Below, in pieces: positions 4,755-5,700 of a stretch of DNA of 44,374 nucleotides (the first letter of the stretch is position 1; each line of letters starts with the position of its first letter). Source of the stretch: a virus (taxonomy: Duplodnaviria > Heunggongvirae > Uroviricota > Caudoviricetes); IMG/VR virus record IMGVR_UViG_2534681761_000010, one strand, 5' to 3'. The position numbers and the translations under genes are program-made. The notes under the pieces were generated by a model. That model searched no databases, had not been told where the DNA came from, and was given only the letters and a program-made list of their open reading frames with translations.

Positions 4755-5700
4755 ACGCCCACTGGTTATAAACACGCAGCTGGCAATGAAAATTGGCTTA
4801 AACGAAGCCATTGTTTTGCAACAACTGCACTACTGGTTGAGAGATACCAACTCCGGCATGGAATGTGATGGTGTTCGCTGGATTTATAACACAACGGAAC
4901 AATGGCTGGAACAGTTCCCATTCTGGTCAGAGTCAACGTTAAAGCGCGCGTTTGCAAGTCTGAAAACGCTGGGGCTTTTGCGTTGTGAAAAGCTCAATAA
5001 ATCAAAGCGCGATATGACCAATTTCTACACGATCAACTACGGGAGCGAGCTTTTAGATGGTGGCAAATTGAGCGAATCCATCGGTTTAAAATGCGCCGCT
5101 CCATCAGGTCAAAATGACACGATGGAAGAGGTCAAAATGAAACGCTCCATTGGTTCAAAACGACTCAATGTCATCGGGTCAAAATGGCCTGATGATCTTA
5201 CAGAGAATACAACAGAGATTACTACAGAGAATAAAAAGACTTCTCGTCCGGAAGCTTCGCAACCGGACCCGCAGACGGTTGAACAGGATTTTTTAACCCG
5301 ACACCCTGACGCGGTTGTGTTCAGTGCGAAAAAACGCCAGTGGGGCAGCCAGGAAGATTTGGCGTGTGCGCAGTGGATCTGGGGGCGAATCGTGAGTCTT
5401 TACGAGCAGGCCGCCAGCGATGATGGCGAGATTTCGCGACCGAAAGAACCCAACTGGACCGCATGGGCCAACGACGTGCGCACAATGCGGATGCTGGATG
5501 GCAGAACTCACAGACAAATTTGTGAAATGTTTGGTCGGGTGCAGCGGGATCCATTCTGGGTAAAAAATATCATGAGTCCGTCAAAGCTTCGCGAAAAATG
5601 GGATGAACTGGTTATCCGCCTGGGGCGTTCGTCTGTACAGCGTTGTGTGAATCATATTTCTGAGCCGGATACCGAAATTCCGCCGGGCTTCAGGGGGTAA
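4735..5700 (+). CDS. Replication initiator, phage O-like (N-terminal winged-helix DNA-binding domain), contains iteron origin
   Basis: ATG at 4735 inside the 4681 ORF; N-terminal HTH-like LAMKIGLNEAIVLQQLHYW; five about 23-bp-spaced iterons inside the coding region followed by an A/T-richer stretch, as in lambda O/ori. Confidence 0.5.
   Translation: MSLLFAERPLVINTQLAMKIGLNEAIVLQQLHYWLRDTNSGMECDGVRWIYNTTEQWLEQFPFWSESTLKRAFASLKTLGLLRCEKLNKSKRDMTNFYTINYGSELLDGGKLSESIGLKCAAPSGQNDTMEEVKMKRSIGSKRLNVIGSKWPDDLTENTTEITTENKKTSRPEASQPDPQTVEQDFLTRHPDAVVFSAKKRQWGSQEDLACAQWIWGRIVSLYEQAASDDGEISRPKEPNWTAWANDVRTMRMLDGRTHRQICEMFGRVQRDPFWVKNIMSPSKLREKWDELVIRLGRSSVQRCVNHISEPDTEIPPGFRG
5077..5191. repeat. Putative origin of replication: 5 iterons (consensus tccatc-GGTCAAAATG) at about 23-bp spacing
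   Basis: Copies near 5077, 5100, 5125, 5146, 5171; followed by AT-rich repeats (acagagaat x3) at 5200-5235. Confidence 0.5.

What the first reader, a model, noticed from the sequence alone, without database searches (positions are those of the whole stretch)
5077..5235. Iteron-type replication origin embedded in the O-like gene
Five copies of a GGTCAAAATG-containing 21-23-bp unit are phased about 23 bp apart inside the coding region, followed by an A/T-richer stretch with acagagaat repeats. This mirrors lambda ori inside O and supports the replication-initiator call for a protein I cannot otherwise name.
Basis: seen in the sequence. Interest (0 to 1): 0.45.

Follow-up and report, generated by a model that had tools for sequence, protein, structure and literature searches.

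The report
Lambda-type replication origin inside initiator gene
The repeats are real and are almost certainly the replication origin of a lambda-like E. coli prophage, written into the part of the initiator gene that encodes a floppy linker; it is a well-known kind of element, in a version nobody seems to have studied, and it is probably silent in this damaged prophage.

Summary
Observation confirmed. Five 23-bp-phased, partly palindromic units (5079-5194) and a degenerate sixth (5056-5078) are followed by three 12-bp TACAGAGAnTAC units (5199-5234), the least stable DNA in the gene.

Interpretation supported. The host gene (4735-5700) matches PHROG "replication initiation O-like". Its C-terminal half is 35% identical to lambda O. 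Its N-terminal domain is a winged helix closest to plasmid RepA_N and DnaD. The repeats fall exactly in the segment coding a predicted disordered linker (residues 109-175).

- 58 of 79 distant homologues, from Proteobacteria to Firmicutes, carry phased repeats at the same place in the gene, against 1-2 of 79 in control segments.
- The repeat sequence changes with the protein. Residue 67 tracks the base 5' of the CA core almost perfectly (Ser-T, Asp-G, Lys/Arg-A, Asn/His-C).
- The 12-mers are constrained at DNA level (Glu codon GAG 24 of 24).

No P, DnaC or DnaB gene follows. Instead the protein ends in a DnaT-like tail, which is found only in helicase-less modules.

In this window a 2.3-kb deletion removed the repressor, cro and their promoter region, so the origin is probably cryptic.

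Verdict: new member of a known kind, with moderately interesting family-level rules. Nothing was tested experimentally.

The parts
4508..4512 (.). Deletion junction. About 2.28 kb present in phages mEp460_ev081 and HannyBb is missing here: the repressor, the cro-like gene, their intergenic promoter region and the 5' half of the cII/YdaT-like gene.
   Evidence: blastn of window 3900-4800 against L002 and L003: 3900-4512 aligns to L002 1109-1720 and 4508-4800 to L002 4001-4293; annotation of L002 and L003
4533..4754 (+). Remnant of the cII-like/YdaT-family gene; overlaps the start of the initiator gene.
   Evidence: RefSeq marks it as a pseudogene missing its N-terminus; PHROG 163 CII-like, profile positions 101-152 only; fused ORF calls carry PF06254 YdaT
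4735..5700 (+). O-like replication initiator gene, 321 aa, intact.
   Evidence: ORF list; PHROG 391 at 4.5e-95; 96% identical to the gene of viable phages
4735..5058 (+). Codes the N-terminal winged-helix domain (residues 1-108), the predicted iteron-binding domain. Residue Ser67 is the putative specificity residue.
5056..5078 (+). Iteron 0, degenerate (GATGGTGGCAAATTGAGCGAATC).
   Evidence: 14 of 23 to consensus; the same position is GAGGTCAAAGTGA in mEp460_4F5 and the Klebsiella phage; 6 phased copies in Citrobacter, Raoultella and Enterobacter relatives
5079..5101 (+). Iteron 1 (CATCGGTTTAAAATGCGCCGCTC).
5102..5124 (+). Iteron 2 (CATCAGGTCAAAATGACACGATG), 21 of 23 to the palindromic consensus.
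5125..5147 (+). Iteron 3 (GAAGAGGTCAAAATGAAACGCTC).
5148..5170 (+). Iteron 4 (CATTGGTTCAAAACGACTCAATG).
5172..5194 (+). Iteron 5 (CATCGGGTCAAAATGGCCTGATG), 21 of 23 to consensus.
5199..5234 (+). Three 12-bp units (TACAGAGAATAC, AACAGAGATTAC, TACAGAGAATAA). This is the A/T-rich, purine-skewed, least stable segment and the proposed DNA-unwinding and helicase-entry element.
   Evidence: the motif is conserved across phyla and constrained at DNA level
5059..5259 (+). Segment coding residues 109-175, predicted disordered. It contains all iterons and the 12-mers.
   Evidence: Full-length AF2 model: pLDDT below 50 for residues 109-175, about 28 on average; coordinates computed
5246..5268 (.). Short inverted repeat GTCCGG / CCGGAC, 6-nt arms. 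It sits to the right of the A/T-rich stretch, where lambda has a 12-nt-arm palindrome. Weak; could be chance.
   Evidence: mostly conserved in relatives
5281..5622 (+). Codes the C-terminal helical domain (residues 183-296), homologous to the lambda O C-terminal domain.
   Evidence: BLASTP 35% identity over 148 aa, E=4e-28; PHROG 277/2357; AF2 helices 183-296
5659..5697 (+). Codes the C-terminal tail SEPDTEIPPGFRG, which resembles the C-terminus of host primosomal protein DnaT.
   Evidence: PDB sequence hits 2ru8, 6aep, 9zbt at E=0.008-0.03; NCBIfam DnaT positions 158-179 of 179; distribution and anticorrelation with helicase/loader genes
5741..6163 (+). Next gene: DUF977 / LygF / Ren-like. 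Not a helicase or loader.
   Evidence: Pfam PF06163 at 1.3e-28; PHROG 142

Best explanation
This is the replication origin of an mEp460/Qin-type lambdoid prophage of E. coli. It is built like lambda ori and lies inside the initiator gene, in the DNA that codes a disordered linker between the protein's two domains. Proposed mechanism, step by step. (1) Inferred from covariation: dimers of the winged-helix N-domain bind the five or six 23-bp dyad-symmetric iterons, and residue 67, at the start of the recognition helix, reads the base 5' of the CA core. (2) Inferred by analogy with the lambda O-some and pSK41 Rep: the phased, A-tract-containing array is bent or wrapped. (3) Inferred from stability, strand asymmetry and DNA-level conservation: strain is released by melting of the adjacent TACAGAGAnTAC 12-mer block, possibly with sequence-specific single-strand recognition. 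(4) Speculative: the lambda-O-like C-terminal domain and the DnaT-like tail bring in the host DnaB/DnaC machinery without a phage P protein. Shown here: the cis element and the initiator ORF are intact in this window, but the repressor/cro/promoter region upstream is deleted and no promoter-like site remains. The origin is therefore probably silent unless the initiator is supplied by read-through or by a related superinfecting phage.
Against: There is no experimental evidence for binding, melting or autonomous replication of this element or of any close relative; literature searches found none. Iterons 0, 1 and 3 are degenerate. The N-domain is not in Pfam Phage_rep_O. There is no P, DnaC or DnaB partner gene, so helicase recruitment is unexplained. 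The upstream promoter region is deleted and no sigma-70-like site was found, so activity in this genome is doubtful. Variability among close relatives is not lower in the iterons than in the rest of the gene (33 of 142 sites against 239 of 966). The covariation counts are not corrected for phylogeny beyond clustering.
Confidence: 0.85

Rival explanations
1. The repeats are initiator-binding sites, but their main job is regulatory: autoregulation, a roadblock to transcription of the gene's own 3' half, titration or handcuffing for copy control, or exclusion of related phages. Replication would start elsewhere.
For: Iterons in plasmids also act in copy control (general knowledge). Ectopic lambda ori copies inhibit phage growth (titles and abstracts of PMC4488673 and PMC3349717). 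A prophage that has lost its promoter but kept the array intact could retain it for exclusion.
Against: Across phyla the array is always joined to a strand-specific, DNA-constrained, lowest-stability block on its downstream side. That is the anatomy of an origin, not of an operator. No other repeat cluster or DnaA-box cluster in the window offers an alternative origin.
Confidence: 0.07
2. The repeats are a by-product of a repeated peptide in the linker, so selection acts on the protein and not on the DNA.
For: The 12-bp units are in frame and encode T-E-x-T repeats (LTENTTEITTEN). Units 1, 4 and 5 of the 23-bp array encode similar peptides (SIGLK, SIGSK, VIGSK).
Against: The 23-bp period is not a multiple of 3, and the cores are read in frames 0, 1 and 2. 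The linker is predicted disordered. Synonymous choices are fixed: GAG 24 of 24, ACG 0 of 48. In Bacillus phage TP21-L one ACAGAGA is read in a different frame. The iteron sequence covaries with a residue of the N-domain, not with the linker.
Confidence: 0.01
3. The array is a binding site for a different protein or process, such as a partition centromere, a packaging site or a host factor, and only coincides with the initiator gene.
For: Phased dyad repeats are also typical of parS/parC-type centromeres (general knowledge; an example in phage B83, PMC6669507).
Against: No partition genes lie nearby. The array travels with the N-domain when the C-terminal domain is exchanged. It covaries with one residue of that N-domain.
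Confidence: 0.03

Closest known systems
Bacteriophage lambda ori and O protein (O-some)
   Same: The origin lies inside the initiator gene, in the inter-domain segment. There are 4-6 dyad-symmetric iterons about two helical turns apart with a CAAAAYG-type centre (lambda ATCCCTCAAAACGAGGGA; here GGGTCAAAATGACCC). An A/T-rich purine-skewed stretch follows at almost the same distance into the gene. The C-terminal domain is homologous at 35% identity. In intact relatives the gene follows the repressor, cro and cII genes.
   Different: The N-domain is not in Pfam Phage_rep_O, which lambda O hits at 5.7e-36. The only link is that both proteins hit phrog_678 over overlapping profile positions. No P gene follows. 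The protein carries a DnaT-like tail that lambda O lacks. The unwinding block is a defined 12-bp repeat rather than a plain A/T tract. Lambda's 12-nt-arm palindrome is matched here only by a 6-nt-arm inverted repeat.
RepA_N plasmid initiators (pSK41 Rep; PDB 4pta)
   Different: No Pfam RepA_N hit. Sequence identity in the structural alignment is only 12%. This is a phage element, not a plasmid. The pSK41 C-terminal domain binds DnaG primase; the partner here is unknown.
SPP1 G38P / staphylococcal phage 80alpha ORF20 replisome organisers (DnaD-like)
   Same: The origin (oriL) is embedded in the organiser's own gene, and the N-domain binds it (PMC5499656). The window's N-domain hits PHROG families labelled DnaD-like helicase loader. 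Staphylococcal homologues such as 42E carry a DnaB_2/DnaD-type C-terminal domain and are followed by a loader and a helicase gene.
   Different: The window protein has a lambda-O-type C-terminal domain and no phage helicase or loader. Whether G38P itself shares this N-domain was not tested.
E. coli DnaT (primosomal protein I)
   Same: The last 13 residues, SEPDTEIPPGFRG, closely match the DnaT C-terminus SEPDSQIPPGFRG. This is why some pipelines annotate the gene as 'Primosomal protein I'.
   Different: The similarity is confined to the tail: NCBIfam score 17 against a cutoff of 201. The protein is not a DnaT homologue. The function of the DnaT tail is itself poorly defined; removing residues 154-179 halves ssDNA affinity and lowers cooperativity (PMC4132743).

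Membership tests
Lambda-type (O-type) lambdoid replication origin | Origin lies inside the initiator gene, in the segment between its two domains | tested here: met
   The iterons and 12-mers (5056-5234) fall within the DNA coding residues 109-175, which has pLDDT below 50 and lies between a folded N-domain and a folded C-terminal domain
Lambda-type (O-type) lambdoid replication origin | Four or more dyad-symmetric iterons about two helical turns apart | tested here: met
   5 copies plus 1 degenerate, spacing 23, 23, 23, 24 bp, partial 23-bp palindromes. The lambda record read the same way gives 4 copies spaced 20, 24, 23 bp
Lambda-type (O-type) lambdoid replication origin | A/T-rich, strand-asymmetric, easily melted region immediately downstream of the iterons | tested here: met
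   GC 30% and AT skew 0.64 at 5200-5239; least stable 40-mer of the gene; 30 of 44 purines on the top strand
Lambda-type (O-type) lambdoid replication origin | Initiator C-terminal domain homologous to the lambda O C-terminal domain | tested here: met
   BLASTP 35% identity over 148 aa, E=4e-28; shared PHROGs 277, 2357, 391
Lambda-type (O-type) lambdoid replication origin | Initiator N-terminal domain belongs to Pfam Phage_rep_O (PF04492) | tested here: not met
   No Pfam hit for the protein or its N-domain at E<=1 other than noise, while lambda O scores 5.7e-36. The only indirect link is phrog_678
Lambda-type (O-type) lambdoid replication origin | P-type helicase-loader gene immediately downstream of the initiator gene | tested here: not met
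   The next gene is DUF977/LygF. The same holds in the viable phages
Lambda-type (O-type) lambdoid replication origin | Gene lies in the early-right operon downstream of cro/cII and its promoter, as needed for transcriptional activation | tested here: inconclusive
   Met in mEp460_ev081 and HannyBb. In the window this region is deleted and no promoter-like site remains
Lambda-type (O-type) lambdoid replication origin | Initiator binds the iterons and the fragment supports initiator-dependent replication | not testable with these tools
   Only indirect support: residue 67 covaries with the iteron base
RepA_N plasmid replicons | Pfam RepA_N (PF06970) N-terminal domain | tested here: not met
   No hit
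RepA_N plasmid replicons | Winged-helix N-domain fold of the RepA_N/DnaD type, with the origin in the centre of the rep gene | tested here: met
DnaT (primosomal protein I) | Full-length match to the DnaT model (NCBIfam NF002770) | tested here: not met
   17.2 bits against a cutoff of 201; only profile positions 158-179 match

The most novel reading that the evidence does not exclude
The window's origin represents a very widespread but uncharacterised family of phage replicons, found from Proteobacteria to Firmicutes, that follows three simple rules not found in the literature searched. (a) A one-residue, one-base recognition code sets replicon specificity: residue 67 of the winged-helix domain pairs Ser with T, Asp with G, Lys/Arg with A, and Asn/His with C, at the base next to the CA core of each half-site. 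(b) A universal strand-specific 12-nt repeat, TACAGAGAnTAC, serves as the unwinding and helicase-entry element and is recognised by sequence rather than by A/T content alone, comparable to DnaA-trios or the DnaD recognition element. (c) A short host-mimicking C-terminal tail, DnaT-like in Enterobacterales, replaces a phage helicase loader.
Probability: 0.35. Interest if true: 0.65.

Novelty: new member of a known kind. Interest (0 to 1): 0.42.

Why it matters
For this window, it fixes the annotation. RefSeq calls the gene 'hypothetical protein' and other pipelines call it 'Primosomal protein I'. It is the replication initiator, and its centre is the prophage origin. The prophage is replication-crippled by a deletion of its control region.

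More broadly, the family is common. The 1.7-kb query that contains the gene (window 4500-6200) matches at 80% or more of its length in 1584 of 5426 complete E. coli genomes, and homologues occur in many phyla. Its origins can be located by rule: N-domain, then 23-bp-phased palindromes, then ACAGAGA 12-mers.

If the residue-67 code holds, replicon specificity, and hence incompatibility or exclusion between related phages, could be predicted and re-engineered with one substitution.

If the DnaT-like tail does replace a helicase loader, it would offer a handle on an open question: how the E. coli restart machinery, or DnaB/DnaC, is recruited.

Tried and rejected
- Pfam and NCBIfam on the initiator gave no family; the only NCBIfam hit is the DnaT tail.
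- Sequence and profile searches of the PDB with the N-domain gave nothing significant; the best was PadR at E=0.19.
- SNP density among 53 unique close relatives was uninformative. The iteron segment is as variable as the gene average (33 of 142 against 239 of 966 sites). Only the 12-mer block is quieter (5 of 44).
- The first IMG/VR scan returned only 94-100% identical relatives, which were useless for covariation.
- DnaA boxes are at chance level and do not cluster at the origin.
- Rfam found no RNA family in the region.
- The promoter scan found nothing upstream of the gene.
- The inverted repeat to the right of the A/T block has only 6-nt arms and may be chance.
- Literature searches for mEp460, lambdoid iterons, staphylococcal phage origins and 'initiator-solo' modules found no study of this origin type. 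The B83 paper concerns partition iterons, not replication.
- The preprimosome paper does not assign a partner to the extreme DnaT tail.
- A fold search of the C-terminal domain was not run, because the full-length model has pTM 0.37.

Full report
**1. The observation.** Reading 4300-6200 and running the repeat finder shows five copies of a unit with start-to-start spacing 23, 23, 23, 24 bp. In 23-nt register they are:
- 5079 CATCGGTTTAAAATGCGCCGCTC
- 5102 CATCAGGTCAAAATGACACGATG
- 5125 GAAGAGGTCAAAATGAAACGCTC
- 5148 CATTGGTTCAAAACGACTCAATG
- 5172 CATCGGGTCAAAATGGCCTGATG

A degenerate sixth unit lies upstream at 5056-5078. The exact 10-mer GGTCAAAATG occurs three times, only here in 44 kb. The expectation is 0.22, and 0 of 100 shuffles reach three. 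The other two cores differ from it at two positions. Each unit is a partial palindrome; units 2 and 5 match CATCGGGTCAAAATGACCCGATG at 21 of 23 positions.

Downstream, TRF and the repeat finder give three 12-bp units at 5199-5234: TACAGAGAATAC, AACAGAGATTAC and TACAGAGAATAA. This stretch has the lowest GC of the gene, 30%, and a strong A-over-T skew. It contains the least stable 40-mer of the gene, with dG -44.3 against a mean of -55.3 kcal/mol, which is the 99.3rd percentile of the window.

**2. The repeats are a DNA feature, not a peptide feature.** A 23-bp period is not a multiple of three. The five cores are read in frames 1, 0, 2, 1, 1 and give GLK, GQND, EVKMK, GSKR and GSKW. A full-length AlphaFold2 model has a confident N-domain and a moderately confident helical C-terminal domain. 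Residues 109-175 have pLDDT of about 28. These residues are coded by 5059-5259, exactly the iterons plus the 12-mers. The origin-like DNA therefore sits where the protein tolerates almost any sequence.

**3. The host gene and its setting.** The ORF 4735-5700 (321 aa) has no Pfam or NCBIfam family. It does match PHROG 391 'replication initiation O-like' at 4.5e-95. Its residues 147-294 are 35% identical to the C-terminal half of lambda O, read from the lambda record (E=4e-28).

The window is an E. coli prophage integrated next to rspAB. The gene order is int, xis, exonuclease, ydfD, dicB, a truncated cII/YdaT-like pseudogene, this gene, and then a DUF977/LygF gene. In the viable phages mEp460_ev081 and HannyBb (91-92% nucleotide identity) the same gene follows the repressor, cro-like and cII-like genes, which is the position of lambda O.

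Relative to those phages the window lacks about 2.28 kb, with the junction at about 4508-4512. The deletion removed the repressor, the cro-like gene, their intergenic promoter region and the 5' half of the cII-like gene. No sigma-70-like site is left upstream.

**4.

*Close relatives.* In four phages whose proteins are 52-96% identical, the iterons and especially the 12-mer block are nearly invariant. Klebsiella phage ST147-VIM1phi7.2 keeps the N-domain, iterons and 12-mers but has an unrelated C-terminal domain (Phg_2220_C). Other phages share only the C-terminal domain and the LygF gene. The N-domain and the repeat array therefore travel as one module.

*Distant phages.* A tblastn search with the N-domain finds 155 phage records from many host phyla. 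In six distant ones that I fetched, five have 3-5 repeats with 22-24 bp spacing at the same distance into the gene, but with different cores:
- PEp14: GGGCAAATTGCCC
- SopranoGao: GGGCAAAATGCCCC
- yong2: GGACAAATTGTCC
- Staphylococcus 42E: GGACAAAATGRCCC
- Bacillus TP21-L: GTGTCAAAATGA

Most are followed by TACAGAGAYTAC-type units.

*Genome scan.* In 79 usable loci from a one-genome-per-species scan, 58 have three or more phased copies at gene nt 291-490. Three control segments of the same loci give 1, 2 and 2. The repeats are conserved in place and architecture, and they diverge in sequence, as expected for cognate initiator-origin pairs.

**5. Evidence that the N-domain reads the iterons.** I aligned the N-domains and called the base 5' of the CA core in each locus. 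This gives a near-perfect correspondence with residue 67, the residue before invariant Thr68 at the start of the predicted recognition helix 66-78:
- Ser with T: 18 of 18
- Asp with G: 23 of 23
- Lys/Arg with A: 8 of 8
- Asn/His with C: 4 of 4
- Glu with T: 3 of 3

Mutual information is 1.66 of a possible 1.71 bits. The next best column reaches 0.76, and 0 of 10000 permutations reach the observed value. The mirror base on the right half-site is the complement in 61 of 66 loci. At 40% distance the 60 sequences form 17 clusters, of which 7 contain more than one state. Ser-T occurs in 6 clusters, Asp-G in 7 and Lys/Arg-A in 6. The pairing has therefore switched repeatedly.

This is computational and only crudely corrected for phylogeny. 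It is nevertheless the pattern expected if a dimer of this domain binds each palindrome.

**6. The 12-mers.**
- CAGAGA occurs at 11.1 per kb on the coding strand of gene nt 381-560 in the 79 loci.
- The rate is 0.2 per kb elsewhere, and there are only 2 occurrences on the other strand of the same segment.
- Successive copies are 12 nt apart in 81 of 97 cases.
- In nine phage genes the Glu codons of this block are GAG 24 of 24, against 83 of 175 elsewhere in the same genes (binomial 1.7e-8).
- Thr is never ACG, 0 of 48 against 42 of 138 elsewhere.
- In TP21-L one ACAGAGA is read in another frame.

The block is thus constrained as DNA, in one orientation, whatever the host phylum, iteron type or C-terminal domain. 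I infer that it is the unwinding and helicase-entry element. Sequence-specific single-strand recognition is possible, by analogy with the DnaD recognition element of B. subtilis oriC (PMC10201434). This step is inference.

**7. Helicase recruitment.** No P, DnaC or DnaB gene follows the initiator in the window or in its phage relatives. The protein ends in SEPDTEIPPGFRG, which matches the C-terminus of DnaT (PDB 2ru8, 6aep, 9zbt, E=0.008-0.03; NCBIfam positions 158-179).

Among the 79 loci, a [IV]PxGF[RK] tail occurs in 20, all from Enterobacterales. The gene immediately downstream of tail-bearing initiators is never a helicase or loader: 0 of 20, with PerC 8, HTH_24 5 and DUF977 4. For 52 tail-less initiators it is IstB/DnaC-like in 18, DnaB-like in 7 and lambda-P in 3. 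The Fisher p is 6.6e-6 if these three sets do not overlap, which was not checked per member.

This suggests that the tail substitutes for a phage loader by engaging host machinery. The partner is unknown. The literature read here only shows that DnaT residues 154-179 contribute to cooperative ssDNA binding (PMC4132743), and that how DnaT recruits DnaB/DnaC is unresolved (PMC13377028).

**8. Comparison with known systems.** The element works like lambda ori with the O protein. It has the same three-part protein plan as pSK41 Rep: an N-terminal winged helix binds boxes in the centre of its own gene, the linker is encoded by the origin, and the C-terminal domain is host-specific (PMC5703833). SPP1 G38P follows a similar plan (PMC5499656).

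Membership in the lambda-type family is met for position, iterons, the A/T block and the C-terminal domain. It is not met for the Pfam Phage_rep_O N-domain or for a P partner. Lambda O and this N-domain both hit phrog_678 over overlapping profile positions, which hints at very remote kinship.

The gene is not a DnaT homologue, despite some database names.

**9. Alternatives.**
- A peptide repeat is excluded by the frames and codons.
- A purely regulatory or exclusion role for the array cannot be excluded. It does not explain the obligatory, oriented, low-stability 12-mer block.
- Partition or packaging roles lack any supporting genes, and they conflict with the covariation.

**10. Verdict.** This is a lambda-type origin inside an O-like initiator gene. 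It belongs to a large, experimentally unstudied family, and it sits in a prophage whose replication control region has been deleted. It is a new member of a known kind. The family-level regularities (the residue-67 code, the universal 12-mer, and the DnaT-like tail in loader-less modules) are the interesting part, and all are directly testable.

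Noticed in passing
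window 4508-4512: A 2.28-kb deletion relative to phages mEp460_ev081 and HannyBb removes the whole immunity region (repressor, cro-like gene, promoters, 5' half of the cII/YdaT-like gene). It joins the dicB side directly to the middle of cII, so the prophage can neither repress nor express its early-right operon normally.
   Followed up: yes
window 5659-5697; loci L093-L130: The initiator ends in a DnaT-like tail (SEPDTEIPPGFRG). The motif [IV]PxGF[RK] is kept across unrelated C-terminal domains, occurs only in Enterobacterales, and occurs only where no helicase or loader gene follows (0 of 20 against at least 28 of 52).
   Followed up: partly
L135-L137, L142-L144, L146, L153, L154 (C-termini of homologues): Firmicute homologues end in acidic-aromatic tails such as EDFRFDDET, KDDLPF, DKELPW and EPDFDF. 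These look like SSB C-terminal tails, which suggests lineage-specific host-mimicking tails.
   Followed up: no
window 7785-9134 (-) and 6293-7237 (-): The 449-aa ORF matches the anti-phage defence protein PD-T7-1 (PADLOC E=7e-157). The neighbouring 314-aa ORF has no convincing family. Both are minus-strand genes lying just downstream of the replication genes (5741-6163 is the last of them); mEp460_ev081 carries a minus-strand ORF of the same 1350-nt length at the equivalent position, not compared directly.
   Followed up: partly
window 5235-5245 versus L005 and hits H5-H11: There is a mosaic joint right after the 12-mers. A Klebsiella phage shares the N-domain and origin (77% nucleotide identity) but has a Phg_2220_C C-terminal domain. 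Phages Tritos, Evi and others share only the C-terminal domain and LygF (query 1139-1701). The conserved 12-mer block may double as a recombination joint for domain shuffling.
   Followed up: partly
L094, L095, L138: Metagenome bins labelled Veillonella parvula, Bacillota and Collinsella carry 99-100% identical copies of this E. coli prophage gene. This is most likely binning contamination.
   Followed up: no
window 11954-12128 (+); 16659-16731 and 16832-16905 (+): A sok antitoxin RNA (hok/sok-type module, 111.7 bits) and two tRNA genes lie further along the prophage.
   Followed up: no
window 2345-2428: A 21-bp tandem repeat (4 copies, 74% matches) lies inside the 826-aa exonuclease gene. It falls in its Gln/Glu/Asn-rich central region.
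   Followed up: no
P0122-P0124: Some assemblies call a 448-aa fusion of the upstream gene and the initiator that carries Pfam YdaT (PF06254). The gene annotated 'cII-like' is therefore a YdaT-family protein, and the module parallels ydaS-ydaT-ydaU-(ydaV)-ydaW of the Rac prophage, without the ydaV loader. The Rac gene order is from memory.
   Followed up: no
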